From: Eledone cirrhosa
Lineage: Eukaryota
Direction of reading: 5' to 3'
Assembly: GCA_964016885.1 (NCBI GenBank)
Contig: OZ024741.1
Span: forward strand, 392,584,001 to 392,648,000
Length of the DNA: 64,000 nucleotides
Positions 15,514 through 57,935 of the stretch are shown here, in pieces (within the stretch, counting starts at the first letter, position 1; every line of letters starts with the position of its first letter). Position numbers and translations under genes: made by a program. The notes below the pieces were generated by a model. The model did not search any database and was not told the origin of the DNA. It saw only the letters and a program-made list of their open reading frames with translations.

Positions 15514-16395
15514 ATGGTATCAATGCAATAATTCCAGTCATACACCAGATGGGCTCCATGGTATCAATGCAATAATTCCAGTCATACACCAGATGGGCTC
15601 CATGGTATCAATACAATAATTCCAGTCATACACCAGATGGGCTCCATGGTATCAATACAATAATTCCAGTCATACACCAGATGGGCTCCATGGTATCAAT
15701 ACAATAATTCCAGTCATACACCAGATGGGCTCCATGGTATCAATACAATAATTCCAGTCATACACCAGATGGGCTCCATGGTATCAATGCAATAATTCCA
15801 GTCATACACCAGATGGGCTCCATGGTATCAATACAATAATTCCAGTCATACACCAGATGGGCTCCATGGTATCAATGCAATAATTCCAGTCATACACCAG
15901 ATGGGCTCCATGGTATCAATACAATAATTCCAGTCATACACCAGATGGGCTCCATGGTATCAATGCAATAATTCCAGTCATACACCAGATGGGCTCCATG
16001 GTATCAATGCAATAATTCCAGTCATACACCAGATGGGCTCCATGGTATCAATACAATAATTCCAGTCATACACCAGATGGGCTCCATGGTATCAATGCAA
16101 TAATTCCAGTCATACACCAGATGGGCTCCATGGTATCAATACAATAATTCCAGTCATACACCAGATGGGCTCCATGGTATCAATGCAATAATTCCAGTCA
16201 TACACCAGATGGGCTCCATGGTATCAATACAATAATTCCAGTCATACACCAGATGGGCTCCATGGTATCAATGCAATAATTCCAGTCATACACCAGATGG
16301 GCTCCATGGTATCAATACAATAATTCCAGTCATACACCAGATGGGCTCCATGGTATCAATGCAATAATTCCAGTCATACACCAGATGGGCTCCAT
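15514..16395. repeat. Minisatellite, 20 x 44 bp
   Basis: Unit atggtatcaatRcaataattccagtcatacaccagatgggctcc; only one variable position. Confidence 0.97.
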
Positions 16396-27018: not shown

Positions 27019-27651
27019 AAAGAGATAGAAGGCTAAACAATGCAAAATGGACTGTAAGATGAGGTAACGAAAAGTAAAAGACCTGGTAATCTTTGTTTTG
27101 TTTTGTTGTTCTTTTATTTGTCCAATATTTCGAGACCTAAAAGTCCCTTCATCAGGGTTTAAGGGACTTTCAGTGGATAACATTCCAATTTCCTCTCTTT
27201 GGGATAAAATTTTAATTTTGATTAAAAATATTTCTAAGTCGTTTTCAAGCGTTTTTTTGCAAATAAATAATAGATTAGAACTCAGCACACTGTACTTGAA
27301 GTAAAAAGACACAGCCACAGGCACACAAACTAAACATTTCATAAAAAAAAGAAAATTGATTTCGCGAAATACTATATTGGCACTTGACGTCATTCACGTG
27401 GAAACCATCGGAAAACGCTTGAAAACGACTTAGAAACAATTTTAATCAAAATCAAAATTTTATCCCAAAGAGAGGAAATTGGAACGTTATCCACTGAAGG
27501 TTCCTTAAACTCTGATGAAGGGACTTTTAGGTCCCAAAGTATTGGACAGATAAAAGAAAAAGAACAAACAAAACAAAACAAAGATTACCAGGTAACTTTT
27601 CATTACCTCATCTTACAGTCCATTTTGCATTGTTTAGCCTTCTATCTCTTC
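27019..27651. repeat. Fold-back element (about 235-bp arms) with a PLE-type HHR-like motif in each arm
   Basis: 27019-27254 pairs with 27412-27651; left arm minus strand reads CTGATGA-agggac-ttttag-gtctc-GAAA-tattgg. Confidence 0.75.
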
Positions 27652-42226: not shown

Positions 42227-42285
<59 letters not shown>

Positions 42286-42291
<6 letters not shown>

Positions 42292-42895
42292 ATAATTTGG
42301 GAGGGTCATGTTGCCAATAAAAACACGCGCACCTGTTAGTTTTCACTTCAATTTATTATAAGTTTCCGGTTGGTTGGTTTGATAACTGGAAGGTTGTTTA
42401 TATATTTTCAAAGCTCTTTCGTCACACATTCTGTGACCTCCTCAGTGACTAGATTTTTATTTTTTGCATCTCTCGTTTGTTCTGTCCTACCCCATTAAGA
42501 AGGTGAGAAGCAAAAAATAAAAACCTAGTCACTGAGGAGGTCACGGAATGTGTGACAAAAGACCTTTGAGAATATATAAACAACCTTCCGGTTATTAAAC
42601 CAACCAACCGGAAATTTATAATAAATTGAAGTGAAAACCAACAGTTGCGTGTGTTTTTATGTGCAGCATGACCAAAGTATGACAATATCTGTTTCACACA
42701 CATTTTCAGATAAGAAGTCTCGCAACTCAAATTCAAAAACGAATTGGAGGAATAACAACACACCCAGGAGCTGGACATATCGATGTATTGACGGAGTAAA
42801 ACACACTTCAACAACACGTGTACCTGTCTTTTCCACACCAATTCGGACTGCCTGAAGAGATCACAACCAATGATGGCTGTCACCGAAATATATAT
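42286..42895. mobile_element. Inverted pair of PLE family-A pLTRs; right copy runs into the ORF 5' end
   Basis: 42286-42452 pairs with 42525-42688. HHR 42408-42449 on minus has an intact core CTGAGGA..GAAA; HHR 42528-42569 on plus has GAAA changed to AAAA. Confidence 0.85.
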
Positions 42896-50496: not shown

Positions 50497-52353
50497 GGTA
50501 TGCCTGACCGATTTAACTCACTCAATATGCAAATTAGGCTGCTCAGCCGTTAATTTTCATAAGGAAAGTATATACTTTCGAACGTTCAACTATCTGGCAG
50601 ATGGGTAAACGGTGCTGATGATAGCTAACAAGCTTGAAACTAGTACATCGTTCCTGTGTCAGTGTTGAACAAAAAGGTGACGTGGTTGCCTTAACACCGT
50701 ATGGCATAAATTCAGGCTGTTCAGTTTGTTTACAAACGAACAAAGCGACGTTAGCGCCGCTAAACTGATACGTGCATATATGTATGTGTACCTGTATGCA
50801 TATGTATATATATATGTATATATATATATATATGTGCATGCTACTGTACGTCTGTATACATATATGTATGTACGTATACATGCATACTTACATTTAAGTA
50901 AGTGCCATACTAAGAGTGAGAAATGAAATTTCGTTTTCATTTTGTTTCAATTTATCGTTTTCGGTATGCCTGACCGATTTAACTCACTCAATATGCAAAT
51001 TAGGCTGCTCAGCCGTTAATTTTCATAAGGAAAGTATATACTTTCGAACGTTCAACTATCTGGCAGATGGGTAAACGGTGCTGATGATAGCTAACAAGCT
51101 TGAAACTAGTACATCGTTCCTGTGTCAGTGTTGAACAAAAAGGTGACGTGGTTGCCTTAACACCGTATGGCATAAATTCAGGCTGTTCAGTTTGTTTACA
51201 AACGAACAAAGCGACGTTAGCGCCGCTAAACTGATACGTGCATATATGTATGTGTACCTGTATGCATATGTATATATATATGTATATATATATATATATG
51301 TGCATGCTACTGTACGTCTGTATACATATATGTATGTACGTATACATGCATACTTACATTTAAGTAAGTGCCATACTAAGAGTGAGAAATGAAATTTCGT
51401 TTTCATTTTGTTTCAATTTATCGTTTTCGGTATGCCTGACCGATTTAACTCACTCAATATGCAAATTAGGCTGCTCAGCCGTTAATTTTCATAAGGAAAG
51501 TATATACTTTCGAACGTTCAACTATCTGGCAGATGGGTAAACGGTGCTGATGATAGCTAACAAGCTTGAAACTAGTACATCGTTCCTGTGTCAGTGTTGA
51601 ACAAAAAGGTGACGTGGTTGCCTTAACACCGTATGGCATAAATTCAGGCTGTTCAGTTTGTTTACAAACGAACAAAGCGACGTTAGCGCCGCTAAACTGA
51701 TACGTGCATATATGTATGTGTACCTGTATGCATATGTATATATATATGTATATATATATATATATGTGCATGCTACTGTACGTCTGTATACATATATGTA
51801 TGTACGTATACATGCATACTTACATTTAAGTAAGTGCCATACTAAGAGTGAGAAATGAAATTTCGTTTTCATTTTGTTTCAATTTATCGTTTTCGGTATG
51901 CCTGACCGATTTAACTCACTCAATATGCAAATTAGGCTGCTCAGCCGTTAATTTTCATAAGGAAAGTATATACTTTCGAACGTTCAACTATCTGGCAGAT
52001 GGGTAAACGGTGCTGATGATAGCTAACAAGCTTGAAACTAGTACATCGTTCCTGTGTCAGTGTTGAACAAAAAGGTGACGTGGTTGCCTTAACACCGTAT
52101 GGCATAAATTCAGGCTGTTCAGTTTGTTTACAAACGAACAAAGCGACGTTAGCGCCGCTAAACTGATACGTGCATATATGTATGTGTACCTGTATGCATA
52201 TGTATATATATATGTATATATATATATATATGTGCATGCTACTGTACGTCTGTATACATATATGTATGTACGTATACATGCATACTTACATTTAAGTAAG
52301 TGCCATACTAAGAGTGAGAAATGAAATTTCGTTTTCATTTTGTTTCAATTTAT
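50497..52353 (+). repeat. Tandem array of about 4 x 466 bp, one HHR per unit (retrozyme-like satellite)
   Basis: Units start at 50497, 50963, 51429 and 51895 and appear identical; last unit ends in (TA)-rich sequence. Confidence 0.95.
50608..50652 (+). ncRNA. Type I HHR, unit 1 (also 51074-51118, 51540-51584, 52006-52050)
   Basis: aacggtg-CTGATGA-t-agct-aaca-agct-t-GAAA-ctag-TA-catcgtt; 7-bp stem I; palindromic stem III ACUAGU; GUA triplet. Confidence 0.88.
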
Positions 52354-52527: not shown

Positions 52528-53650
52528 ATCCACCGTATGCAGTTCTCTGGTTACAATCAGAGAGATAAAATCAGAGTATATAGAGGAGCCAGAACCAAAT
52601 GGGAAAAAATAGTAAATAATGATACAAATGGGACCTACCCCTTGTATAGGAGCAAGTTTTGGAATAGAATAGAAAGAACTAGGAATAAGGTTAATAGAAT
52701 AAACTCATGGTATGATAGCAATAAATACCAGAGTGTAATGTTCATCAATACAACCCTTAGAGGTGAACTAGCTTACAAATTTAGAAGGGCTCTAGATAAA
52801 CTTAAACTAAATATTAAGATAGTGGAAAAACCAGGTACCTCCATAAAAACACTTATTAGTAATACATACCCCTTTCAAAGACCTCCCTGTATAGATAAGA
52901 AATGCATAATCTGTAAACTAAGCCCCCTTATTAACTGCAAAACTAGAAACATAGTATATAGCATAAGATGTACATAAATGTAAAGATAAGAATATAATGT
53001 ACATAGGTGAGATAGCTCGTAGCATAGGAGAACAATTAAATGAACACTAGTGAGAGCTTCAAGATAGAAAAGACTCATCAGTACTCCACCAGCATGCTAA
53101 AATAGAAAATTAGAGAACATAGAAATAAAAATAAAATCTACACACAGAAAAGACGCAATGTTTAGACAAATCACAGAGGCAATAAACATAAATGAACTCC
53201 AACCAAAATTAAATAGAAAACAGGAATGGAATAGTAACATCACAACTTACAATTAAGAACAAAATGAAAACGCACACACATAGAACAAACAACTAACTAG
53301 TAACATGTAAATAAACAAATAAATAAACAAATAAAAACACACACAGACACCCGGATGTAACACATGCACAAACTAAGCACACAACACACACCAAAACAAG
53401 ATGGCGTAGGACAGAACAAAGGAGAGACACAAAACAGAAAAAAGAATCCCTGGTCACTGATGAGGTGACAGAATGTGTGACGAAAGAACTTTGACAATAT
53501 ATGAACAACCGTCTGGTTGTGGAACCAACCAATCAACCGGAAATTTATAAATTTTTTAAAATTGATAATTTAATTTATAATAAATTGGAGTAAAAGCAAT
53601 TGGTGCGTGTATTTCTTATTGGCAATATGACCCTCCTAAAGTATAACAAT
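52528..53650 (+). mobile_element. 5'-truncated PLE family A (RT C-terminus, disabled GIY-YIG, pLTR with HHR 53453-53495)
   Basis: ORF 52537-52977 RMQFSGY...; HHR gtca-CTGATGA-g-gtgaca-gaatg-tgtgac-GAAA-gaac-TT-tgac. Confidence 0.92.
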
Positions 53651-53668
53651 ATATAAATATACATATAC

Positions 53669-54534: not shown

Positions 54535-54675
54535 ATATTAAATAAATGGAAAGTATATTTATAAAACCATATTTATTCTATTATATATATATATAATAGA
54601 ATATATATATATAATAGAATAAATATGGTTTTGTAAATATAGTTTCCATTTATTTAATATCATTGAATACTTACT

Positions 54676-55049
54676 CCATTGACTGACCGGCGGTCAAAAA
54701 ATAATAGAGATACAATATAGACACAAACACATATATATAGTTTACATAATTTACATAAATCTTTCGTTACACATCTGCAACATCGTCAGTGGTGTTATAT
54801 TCATTGTTCCTCCTGTTGTGTTGTATGTCTACGCCATTTTTTTTGTAAACTATATATATGTGTTTGTGTCTATATTGTATCTGTATTATTTTTTGACCGC
54901 CGGTCAGTCAATGGCAACATTGAGGACCGAGTAAGTTAGATCGCAGATATAAAAGACAGCGAGAAGCGAAAACCAACCAAACAGTGAGTGTGTTCTGTTA
55001 TTAATTCTGGCAATATTACGCAAATATGACCCTCCCCAAATATAACAAT
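54676..55049. mobile_element. Inverted pair of PLE-B pLTR pieces; HHR at 54754-54791 on minus
   Basis: Minus strand ca-CTGACGA-t-gttgca-gatg-tgtaac-GAAA-gatt-TA-tg; plus copy 54844-55049. Confidence 0.85.
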
Positions 55050-55108
55050 ATATAAATATACATATATGTATATTTATATATATATATATATAAATATACA
55101 TATATGTA

Positions 55109-55164
<56 letters not shown>

Positions 55165-55265
55165 TAATAATAAATTTCTTTGCTTAAACTTTAATCTGTT
55201 ATTTTAATAAATATATATACATATATACATATATGTATATTTATATATATACATATATGTATATT

Positions 55266-55300
<35 letters not shown>

Positions 55301-55305
<5 letters not shown>

Positions 55306-55666
55306 ATATTAATAAATGGAAACTATATTTATAAAACCATATTTATTTTATTATATATATTTCAAGGGCAACCAAGGCAAATTATGGTGTGCTTTCATCA
55401 GATAAAATACAGATTTGTTTTATAAATAAATATTGACATACCCGAAAAAAAAAGATAACCTTAACGGTTGGAGCTTCCTTGAGATTGGAGACAATATTTT
55501 ATTGAAGGTAATACAAAGTTATGAGTGAGTATGCAAATGAATGATAAAACAAATCTGTATTTTATCTGATGAAAGCGCACCATAATTTGCCTTGGTTGCC
55601 CTTGAAATATATATAATAAAATAAATATTGTTTTATAAATATAGTTTCCATTTATTAATATATTGT
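55301..55666. repeat. Fold-back with about 122-bp arms; HHR at 55344-55409 (minus) and 55558-55623 (plus)
   Basis: tattttat-CTGATGA-aagcgcacc..ggttgccctt-GAAA-tatata-TA-ataaaata; related smaller fold-back at 54531-54665. Confidence 0.85.
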
Positions 55667-55824
55667 GTATTTACTCCACTAATTTGTTGAGTGCTTGTTG
55701 AATCCCAACAAATTAAATATAACCTCTGCATATATATATAACTTTTATTTATATTTTTTTTTGCCCGTTAAACTTTTGCCTTTCTTGAGGAGATTTTTCA
55801 AATATTTCACAGTGTTTTAAATTG

Positions 55825-55892
55825 CTTTGTCTGACGAACGAGTGAGAACGTTTCTTGTATTCGTCTTATTCAGGAAACCTCTGGTAATGAGG
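55825..55892 (+). ncRNA. Aged type I HHR
   Basis: ctttgt-CTGACGA-acgagtgagaacg..cgtcttattcag-GAAA-cctctgg-TA-atgagg; many G-U pairs. Confidence 0.5.
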
Positions 55893-55920
55893 TAATTATA
55901 TTGTATTGTTTATTATACAT

Positions 55921-55954
<34 letters not shown>

Positions 55955-55967
55955 TGTATATTTATAT

Positions 55968-57935
55968 ATTGTTATACTTTGGGAGGGTCATGTTGCCAAT
56001 AAGAAACACATGCACCAGTTGCTTTCACTCCAATTTATTATAAATTAAATTATAAATTTCCTGTTGGTTGGTTGGTTCCACAACCGGACGGTTGTTCATA
56101 TATTGTCAAAGTTCTTTCGTCACAAATTCTGTGACCTCATCAATGACCGGAGATTCTTTTCTTTGTCTTGTGCCCCTCCTTTGTTCTGTCCTACGCCATC
56201 TTGGTTTTGTGTGTGTTGTGTGCTTAGTTTGCGCATGTGTTACATCCGGGTGTCTGTGTGTGTTTTTATTTGTTTATTTATTTGTTTATTTACATGTTAC
56301 TAGTTAGTTGTTTGTTCTATGTGTGTGCGTTTTCATTTTGTTCTTAATTGTAAGTTGTGATGTTGCTATTCCATTCATGTTTTCTATTTAATTTTGGTTG
56401 GAGTTCATTTATGTTTATTGCCTCTGTGATTTGTCTAAACATTGCGTCTTTTCTGTGTGTAGATTTTATTTTTATTTCTATGTTCTCTAATTTGCCCTTA
56501 TTTTCTATTTTAGCATGCTGGTGGAGTAATGATGAGTCTTTTCTATCTTGAAGCTCTCACTAGTGTTCATTTAATCGTTCTCCTATGCTACGAGCTGTCT
56601 CACCTATGTACATTATATTCTTATCTTTACATTTATGTACATCTTATGCTATATACTATGTTTCTAGTTTTGCAGTTAATATGGGGGCTTAGTTTACAGA
56701 TTATGCATTTCTTATCTATACAGGGAGGTCTTTGAAAAGGGTATGTATTACTAATAAGTGTTTTTATGGAGGTACCTGGTCTTTCCACTATCTTAATATT
56801 TAGTTTAAGTTTATCTAGGGCCCTTCTAAATTTGTAAGCTAATTCACCTCTAGGGGTTGTATTGATGAACATTACACTCTGGTATTTATTGCTATCATAC
56901 CACGAGTTTATTCTATTAACCTTAATCCTAGTTCTTTCTATTCTATTCCAAAACTTGCTCCTATACAAGGGGCAGGTCCCATTTGTATCATTATTTACTA
57001 TTTTTTCCCATTTGGTTCTGGCTCCTCTATATACTCTGATTTTATCTCTCTGATTGTAACCAGAGAACTGCATACGGTGGATGAAGTGTTGTATGTGTCT
57101 CTCTAGTTCTTTGGGGTTGCACATGCGGGCCACGTTTCTCATCACCCGTACTAAATCCGCAATCAGTATGTTGATTTTGGTATGGTCCGAAACAACTGAG
57201 TTTCGGTGGATCAGGTATTTGGAAGTCATGGGTTTGGCATAATGGGAATGGAGGATTTGTTTTTTGTTATTAATGGTATCTAACCAGATCTCTGTGTCTA
57301 GTACAGGTAATCGATGGTTGGGGTGTTTGCTTGGGTAGTCTATAGTAACTTTAATACTCTGGTGGATTGAGTTAGCTATTTGCTGGATGCTTTCCATGAT
57401 GTTTTTCTCTAATTCCTGACTGTTCTCTAGTGGGGGTGTTTTTATTACGATGTTTATATCATCAACGTAGCGGGAGTACATAATCAGGGTTAAGAGGTTC
57501 TTGTCTTCGAATTGTTCTTTAAGTTTTTTGTCCAACCATACCAGGTTAGCTATGTCACCTGCAATACTAAAGCCAATGGCTGCTCCCTCCTCTTGGGCAT
57601 ATGTTTTTCCATTAAATTTGAACATATGTTCCTTAAGGGTTAGTTTTATACTGGCCCCCACTGCATGTGCAATCATTTTCTTTAGTTCATGATGGTTTTC
57701 AGGGACAATATATGAACAACTGTCCGGTTGTGGAACCAACCAACCAACCAATCAGCCAAGCGGAAATTTATAAATAATTTTAAATTTATAATTTAATTTA
57801 TAATAAATTTGGAGTGAAAGCAACTGGTGTGTGTGTGTTTCTTATTGGCAACATAACCCACCCAAAGTATAACAATATTGGTTTCAACACACGTTTTCAG
57901 ATAAAGAATCTTGCTAAACAAATTCAGAAACGAAA
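55968..57935 (-). mobile_element. PLE family A: 5'-truncated RT-GIY-YIG body (55968-57703, minus) with inverted pLTR (57704-57935, plus)
   Basis: QEEGAAIG, YSRYVDD, RLPVLD, RMQFSGY, VYSIRC..YIGETARS; HHR 56105-56147 with C3 changed to U; both ends in (TA)n. Confidence 0.93.

What the first reader, a model, noticed from the sequence alone, without database searches (positions are those of the whole stretch)
54844..57935. Two inverted pLTRs start at the predicted ribozyme cleavage site
Seen: family A predicts cleavage at GAAAGAACUU|UGACAAUAUAUG, and the inverted piece at 57704 starts GACAATATATG, within 1 nt. Family B predicts GAAAGAUUUA|UGUAAA.., and the plus piece at 54844 starts TGTAAACTATA after a T run. 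Inference: these junctions record HHR-cleaved RNA 5' ends copied to completion, with both target strands priming. This would be genomic evidence of in vivo cleavage, in family A at a weak CUU triplet.
Basis: partly seen in the sequence, partly recalled or inferred. Interest (0 to 1): 0.75.

Follow-up and report, generated by a model that had tools for sequence, protein, structure and literature searches.

The report
Rare ribozyme cuts in Penelope junctions
The two mirror-image joints are ordinary head-to-head insertions of Penelope-type jumping genes and singly are likely chance, but across this genome 24 joints of one family are centred on the predicted cut site of its hammerhead ribozyme, which likely records rare self-cutting in living cells, while hundreds more are centred upstream, at the likely start of the uncut RNA.

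Summary
Both junctions are real head-to-head Penelope-like (PLE) insertions. Family A's arm starts 1-2 nt after the predicted cut.

I ran the genome-wide test. Family A shows no peak: 2 of 34 inversion junctions at 0/+1 against 4.0 expected, and 52 of 74 arms read through the site. In family B, single arms at the site are enriched no more than at control TG positions. Palindromic junctions, where both arms start together, do peak: 24 at the site against 7 in four control windows. They occur in CUU and UUA variants, and in the duplicated lineage at the second site (4 against 0). The same signature gives 459 hits just upstream of an ATGGCG (YY1-like) motif, the likely transcription start. In 56 of 60 two-armed insertions exactly one arm has the tail.

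Reading: both strands prime, most templates are uncut, and about 0.3% of family B arms come from ribozyme-cut RNA. The two window junctions are not evidence by themselves. Earlier scan notes report cut-site peaks in other genomes.

The parts
55966..57703 (-). Family A long arm: 5'-truncated PLE (RT, linker, endonuclease remnant, 3' pLTR), no tail, ending in a TA run
56636..57703 (-). Open frame remnant (356 aa) with the RT core (YVDD) and a CX4CXXC linker; weak Pfam RVT_1 hit below the cut-off
56095..56151 (-). Family A minimal hammerhead motif in the long arm (C3 changed to U in this copy); predicted cut before 56108, triplet CUU
57704..57878 (+). Family A inverted arm, starting at +1/+2 of the predicted cut
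57879..57934 (+). Tail of the family A inverted arm, followed by a TA run
54669..54843 (-). Family B minus arm; starts in the A run just upstream of ATGGCG (54837-54832), the genome-wide 5' end hotspot; breaks off before the pLTR 3' end
54744..54797 (-). Family B minimal hammerhead with a 9-nt duplication; first UUA|UG site before 54755, second before 54746
54844..55050 (+). Family B inverted arm, duplicated lineage, starting at the second TGTAAA; TGT (54844-54846) is microhomology; no tail
52528..53655 (+). Further family A copy with an intact hammerhead core (53449-53505; predicted cut before 53492)

Best explanation
These are head-to-head insertions of two Penelope-like retrotransposon families, likely made when both target strands prime copying and the two copies are joined at their ends, and the two joints in this window likely fell near the ribozyme site by chance although a small class of family B joints elsewhere likely records true cutting.

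Shown: arms face away from each other; joints carry short microhomologies or a few extra bases; nearly always one arm has the tail and the other does not; most arms read through the hammerhead; joints where both arms start together cluster massively just upstream of ATGGCG and, in family B, sharply at U1.1.

Inferred: the element's protein primes one copy at the tail end and one at the pLTR end, from opposite strands. When both copies run off the same RNA 5' end, the joint is a palindrome. That end is usually the transcription start. Rarely (about 0.3% of family B arms) it is the end left by hammerhead cleavage, plausibly after two RNAs in one complex pair through helix III and both cut. In the duplicated lineage the cut would move to the second UUA.
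For: Tail pairing: 56 of 60 two-armed junctions have exactly one tail, 30 expected.

Family A: 52 of 74 position-ordered arms read through the site, 1 starts in -3..+2, 21 start downstream. Of 34 inversion junctions in -2..+10, 2 are at 0/+1 against 4.0 expected; best-fit cleavage share 0, upper bound 13.5%.

Family B palindromes: 15 at the site for three variants, 13 with an arm at U1.1. A fourth variant adds 9 element events, all including U1.1 on both arms. Six of the 24 are blunt 0/0 joints and none is +1/+1. Controls gave 1, 2, 1 and 3 events, all on self-complementary words. P = 1.3e-6 for 15 of 22.

The events differ in flank, centre and lineage. Five belong to lineages seen only with CUU (L404, L405, L409, L412, L416). 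The peak stays on U1.1 in the variant that is 1 nt shorter downstream.

Validation of the marker: 459 palindromic joints just upstream of ATGGCG, control 0.

Literature: the anole protein cuts and extends both strands and starts at two sites bounding the tail; its ribozyme cuts only with protein present (PMC11167929).
Against: No RNA was seen cut; no RNA data were available.

Single arms at U1.1 in family B (16 of 77, about 6 expected) are matched by equal peaks at control TG positions (13 and 10 of 73, about 5 expected). The estimated totals are about 91 arms at 0 and 96 at -33. So only the palindromic class is site-specific.

In the duplicated lineage the palindromes sit at the second site (4) and not at the canonically folded first site (0). 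This needs an alternative fold, whose active register costs 4.5-9 kcal/mol against the perfect 14-bp duplex. It fits a downstream-sequence cause equally well.

Family A has the same CUU core but gave 1 palindrome.

Six of the 15 events have one short arm, which is not two-strand priming.

In the anole no RNA-seq reads began or ended at the site (PMC11167929).
Confidence: 0.6

Rival explanations
1. No cleavage is recorded. The palindromes at U1.1 come from a local feature, such as the enzyme stalling at the folded or paired ribozyme, or a signal in the sequence just downstream (TG..CTATATATAT). All other joints near the site reflect a preference for TG starts and microhomology.
For: TG starts are favoured in the control window too. 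The duplicated lineage follows the downstream context (4 against 0). Family A, with a different downstream sequence, shows almost nothing. Two of 15 events sit on the helix III near-palindrome.
Against: Four control centres with T|G context gave no blunt or insert-type palindrome at the T. Ends fall at 0 rather than -1, where a helix III stall would leave them. The peak does not shift in the variant 1 nt shorter. Predicted helix III duplexes of the common variants are weak (+0.2 and +2.4 kcal/mol).
Confidence: 0.27
2. One reading: both window junctions are cleaved RNA 5' ends copied to completion, including family A at CUU.
For: A starts at +1/+2. B starts at the second TGTAAA, where the duplicated lineage has 4 palindromic junctions. 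A has a tail/no-tail pair.
Against: A lacks U1.1 and its family has no peak. B lies on a 3-nt microhomology. Both are asymmetric, the class with no site-specific excess. I put A at about 10% and B at about 25% (inference).
Confidence: 0.08
3. Position 0 is a minor transcription start or a cut by a host nuclease, not a ribozyme cut.
For: Any fixed RNA 5' end gives the same signature (inference).
Against: The end coincides with U1.1 in four variants. By eye, 8 of 12 family B-type events listed at the upstream hotspot have an extra G before an arm, as a cap would leave, against 1 of 24 directly before U1.1. A formal G test in family A was not significant (6 against 4.9).
Confidence: 0.05

Closest known systems
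Endonuclease-bearing PLE insertions with an inverted 5'-truncated pLTR and an optional tail (PMC8557442, passages; PMC3846280, passages)
   Same: Head-to-head inverted copy at the 5' end, tail at one end only, microsatellite targets, palindromes at inverted junctions.
   Different: The passages read do not map junctions to the ribozyme cut or to a start site. PMC3846280 reads the junction palindromes as self-priming on an antisense template. The tail here is about 56-60 nt rather than 30-40.
Neptune-type PLE (CX2-5CxxC linker; PMC8557442, passages)
   Same: C-terminal GIY-YIG-like domain, CX4CXXC linker, cysteines and histidines placed like the CCHH motif, TA-repeat targets.
   Different: No tree was built, so the clade is assigned from motifs only.
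Poseidon_Ac of the green anole (PMC11167929, parts 1-2 of 4 read)
   Same: Both strands cut and extended; two start sites bound the tail; uncut RNA is the main template; ribozyme needs the protein.
   Different: No reads at the cut site were found there; here a rare genomic class ends exactly at it.
Minimal dimeric PLE hammerheads (PMC4209133, parts 1-2 of 4 read)
   Same: Core, extra base between 9 and 10.1, G10.1-C11.1, short helix I, self-complementary helix III.
   Different: That paper states that in vivo evidence is absent. Here U17 is the common state, and one lineage has a duplication that lengthens helix III.
R2 elements with an HDV-like ribozyme (PMC3774820, abstract and outline)
   Same: Genomic 5' junctions reflect the ribozyme cut site.
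   Different: In R2 the cut defines the element's normal 5' end; here it defines well under 1% of ends.

Membership tests
EN+ Penelope-like element | Reverse transcriptase domain | tested here: met
   YVDD motif; Pfam RVT_1 E 0.008 and 0.018, below the curated cut-off
EN+ Penelope-like element | C-terminal GIY-YIG endonuclease with CCHH | tested here: inconclusive
   Motif-like residues read by eye in family B (VVY..C..C..YIGET..R..H..H..E..N); no Pfam hit
EN+ Penelope-like element | pLTR, inverted 5' copy, optional tail | tested here: met
EN+ Penelope-like element | RT groups with PLE/telomerase RTs in a tree | not tested
   no tree built
Neptune clade | CX2-5CxxC linker between RT and EN | tested here: met
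   CX4CXXC in both families
Neptune clade | Phylogenetic placement | not tested
   no reference set used
Minimal type I hammerhead of PLEs | CUGANGA and GAAA core, bulged base, G10.1-C11.1 | tested here: met
   Rfam gave no hammerhead among the 150 of 193 matches listed
Minimal type I hammerhead of PLEs | Helices supported by compensatory change | tested here: met
   91.7% of 60 cells paired, 3 of 12 pairs change on both sides, only 5 related sequences; helix I is 2 bp in family B
Minimal type I hammerhead of PLEs | NUH triplet | tested here: met
   CUU in 109 family A and 33 family B motifs, UUA in 34 family B motifs among those counted; NUH rule from PMC3884650 passages; the weakness of U17 is recalled
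Minimal type I hammerhead of PLEs | Self-cleavage at the site | not testable with these tools
   only the indirect genomic signature

The most novel reading that the evidence does not exclude
Palindromic head-to-head junctions are a genomic read-out of PLE RNA 5' ends. They map the transcription start (hundreds of events just upstream of a YY1-like motif shared by several families). They also show that minimal hammerheads, even with U17, cut in the germ line, probably two RNAs at once inside a protein dimer. A 9-nt duplication has moved the cut by lengthening helix III.
Probability: 0.45. Interest if true: 0.72.

Novelty: new member of a known kind. Interest (0 to 1): 0.52.

Why it matters
[quoted passage not shown] Five searches listed no paper mapping PLE junctions to the cut site; subscription papers and supplements were not seen, and Lünse et al. 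2016 was not held. If the reading holds, any assembly with many copies can be asked where the RNA starts and whether the ribozyme cuts. The answer here is that cutting happens but is a side path, not the source of the inverted structure. It also names exact constructs to test.

Tried and rejected
Rfam scan: no hammerhead among the 150 of 193 matches listed; the listed matches were microRNA-like hits in TA repeats and two tRNA-like hits. Folding single motifs gave z-scores from -1.16 to +0.60, uninformative.

The first junction pattern was off register and returned mostly point variants; it was replaced. That filter is blind to some palindromic joints, hence.

The raw excess at -2 in family A (8 of 34) is explained by a microhomology-weighted null (4.9 expected, P 0.11); without the weighting P is 0.023. 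The single-arm excess at 0 in family B was rejected as site-specific because control TG positions peak equally. The -115..-86 hotspot in family A anchor arms alone is not significant after scan correction (13 of 54, P 0.12); it rests on the inversion arms and. The cap-G test in family A was negative.

Partner labels were spoiled by references that held inverted arms, and tail calls by TA runs; both were redone.

Rows dropped: 32 of 100 listed rows judged small indels by eye and not fetched. One search, an 11-row tandem array counted once, and deletions or duplications removed., 3 matches counted as 2 loci., 15 rows of one unrelated tandem array and L438. One search, the one hit (L473) is not an element.

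No RNA holder was listed. Laying contigs of three runs added nothing.

Full report
Setting. The window lies in a 3.0-Gb, TA-rich genome. Two PLE families are involved. Family A has at least 2,835 pLTR ends and family B at least 15,253, counted as exact 19-mer hits. Both encode an RT followed by a CX4CXXC linker; a GIY-YIG-like region was read by eye in family B. Both carry a minimal hammerhead motif in the pLTR. Position 0 is U1.1, the first base after the predicted cut.

The observation. Junction A (57703/57704) joins a long arm truncated in the RT to a short arm starting GACAAT. U1.1 is absent and 1 nt is shared with the partner, so the start is +1 or +2. The short arm has the tail and the long arm does not. 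Junction B (about 54844) belongs to a lineage with a 9-nt duplication. The plus arm is identical over 207 nt to three copies that all carry the duplication, and it groups with that lineage (leave-one-out accuracy 36 of 37). Its partner starts just upstream of ATGGCG and breaks off early.

General anatomy. Among family A loci I found 123 head-to-head junctions. Fifty have microhomology or overlap, 13 are blunt and 60 have inserted bases. Where both arms reach the 3' end, 56 of 60 pairs have exactly one tail, against 30 expected. The published account (PMC11167929, parts 1-2 read) has the protein cutting and extending both strands and starting at two sites that bound the tail. I infer one priming at each site from opposite strands. 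Simple fold-back cannot build junction A, because the short arm extends further 3' than the long arm.

Family A test. Of 74 distinct arms taken in genome order along contig 1 (from the first 100 of 2,835 hits), 52 read through the site, 1 starts in -3..+2 and 21 start downstream. A targeted pattern listed 100 of 124 genome-wide hits; 68 were fetched and 34 were inversion junctions in -2..+10. Their counts were 8, 2, 2, 0, 5, 5, 1, 3, 2, 3, 2, 1, 0. A null fitted to 72 junctions elsewhere expects 4.0 at 0/+1 (2 seen) and 4.9 at -2 (8 seen, P 0.11). A fixed start at 0 would put 81% of its calls at 0; the best-fit share is 0, upper bound 13.5% of 34. One palindromic junction lies at the site. Scaling from family B would predict a few, so this is inconclusive rather than negative.

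Family B, single arms. Most variants have the same CUU site as family A, and UUA occurs in a subset. In the site window (100 of 166 hits listed, 77 arms kept), 16 start at 0 against about 6 expected. The control window -35..-20 (100 of 418 listed, 73 kept, tallied by eye) peaks as strongly at two TG positions, 13 and 10 against about 5. Arms favour TG starts in general, so a single junction at 0 proves little.

Family B, palindromic junctions. I then asked where both arms start together. At the site there are 15 events for three variants, plus 9 for the fourth after dropping an unrelated array and one non-element (one of the 9 has a gap above 10). Twenty-two of the 24 have an arm at U1.1; the other two sit on the helix III near-palindrome. 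Six are blunt 0/0 joints, several carry TA or longer inserts, three are 0/+1, and none is +1/+1. Four control centres searched with the same design gave 1, 2, 1 and 3 events, all on natural self-complementary words. For 15 of 22, P is 1.3e-6. Flanks, centres and lineages differ. Variant calls from downstream sequence were right in 40 of 41 leave-one-out tests. Five events are in lineages seen only with CUU. About 48 arms among more than 15,000 is roughly 0.3%.

The duplicated lineage. It shows 4 palindromes at the second TGTAAA and none at the first. The duplication creates a 14-bp self-complementary stretch (-9.0 kcal/mol, against about 0 for the short helix) that ends at the second UUA and would bury the first site. 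The active register needs a bulge and costs 4.5-9 kcal/mol. So the cut may have moved, which would put the window's B junction on the real site. The same result is expected if the signal follows the downstream sequence and not the ribozyme. This is the main unresolved rival.

The dominant end. In family A, 21 of 78 unselected inversion arms start in -112..-84, and 12 of 20 near-symmetric junctions lie in -111..-88. This zone surrounds CAAGATGGCG at -95. A palindrome search just upstream of ATGGCGTAG gave 459 events and a control of 0. That count pools several families, includes some tandem repeats, and covers only part of the zone. CAAGATGGC is the YY1 site that fixes initiation in mammalian L1 (PMC5381506, passage). 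Drosophila Penelope has an internal promoter (PMC2377424, passages). I infer that this is the transcription start, so the typical completed template still holds an uncut ribozyme. No promoter or RNA test was possible.

Mechanism committed to (confidence 0.6). Two copies are primed from opposite strands at the two start sites and end-joined. They stop at independent places unless both run off one RNA end. That end is usually the transcription start and rarely the hammerhead cut. Pairing of two ribozymes in one protein dimer would explain why cut-site ends come in pairs; this step is inference from the dimer models in PMC4209133 and PMC11167929.

Known and new. The architecture is known (PMC8557442, PMC3846280, passages). 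Junctions that reflect a ribozyme cut are known for R2 (PMC3774820, abstract). For PLEs I found no such report in five searches. I also read part 1 of 5 of bioRxiv 10.64898/2026.07.22.740005 and passages of PMC6765202 and PMC3884650. Supplements were not read, and Lünse et al. 2016 was not available. Earlier unchecked scan notes report cut-site peaks in other genomes and no concentration in one window of this genome; they are not counted as support.

Verdict. The two window junctions are weak evidence, about 10% (A) and 25% (B) likely to be cleavage products. The general idea survives for family B as a rare, sharp class. Interest 0.52.

Noticed in passing
genome-wide, upstream of ATGGCGTAG; window 54832-54843: 459 palindromic junctions just upstream of a YY1-like motif shared by several PLE families; several listed family B-type joints have an extra G before the arm, as a cap would leave.
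   Followed up: partly
window 54746-54764 (-): A 9-nt duplication turns the 6-nt helix III word into a 14-bp self-complementary stretch. A pattern covering this lineage and its non-duplicated relative has 4,345 hits.
   Followed up: partly
family B control window -35..-20: Arm starts favour TG dinucleotides 2-3 fold beyond a microhomology null; unexplained.
   Followed up: partly
L408 (G000:C4:326560395): A family B palindromic junction whose short arm continues into inverted family A sequence, suggesting a switch between families in one insertion.
   Followed up: no
L420 (G000:C4:91056293): Family A junction with repeated restarts around the predicted cut site.
   Followed up: no
L188, L189 and two more rows: The same internal deletion of the stem II 3' strand recurs in four family A copies.
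   Followed up: no
window 42281-42709: A third head-to-head insertion of an A-related family; its arms start near -92 and -74, not at the cut.
   Followed up: partly
window 52528-53655 and 55963-57082: Two family A copies 97% identical over 783 nt face each other tail to tail across a stretch of nested short fold-backs.
   Followed up: no
window 50497-52353 and 15514-16395: A perfect 4 x 466-nt tandem array and a 20 x 44-nt array.
   Followed up: no
window 27110-27163 (-): A further CUGAUGA..CGAAA motif unrelated to families A and B.
   Followed up: no
G000:C3:327036212-327062026: A tandem array of about 1.7-kb units, each with a short hairpin that matched the palindrome pattern; not a PLE junction by its centre sequence.
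   Followed up: no
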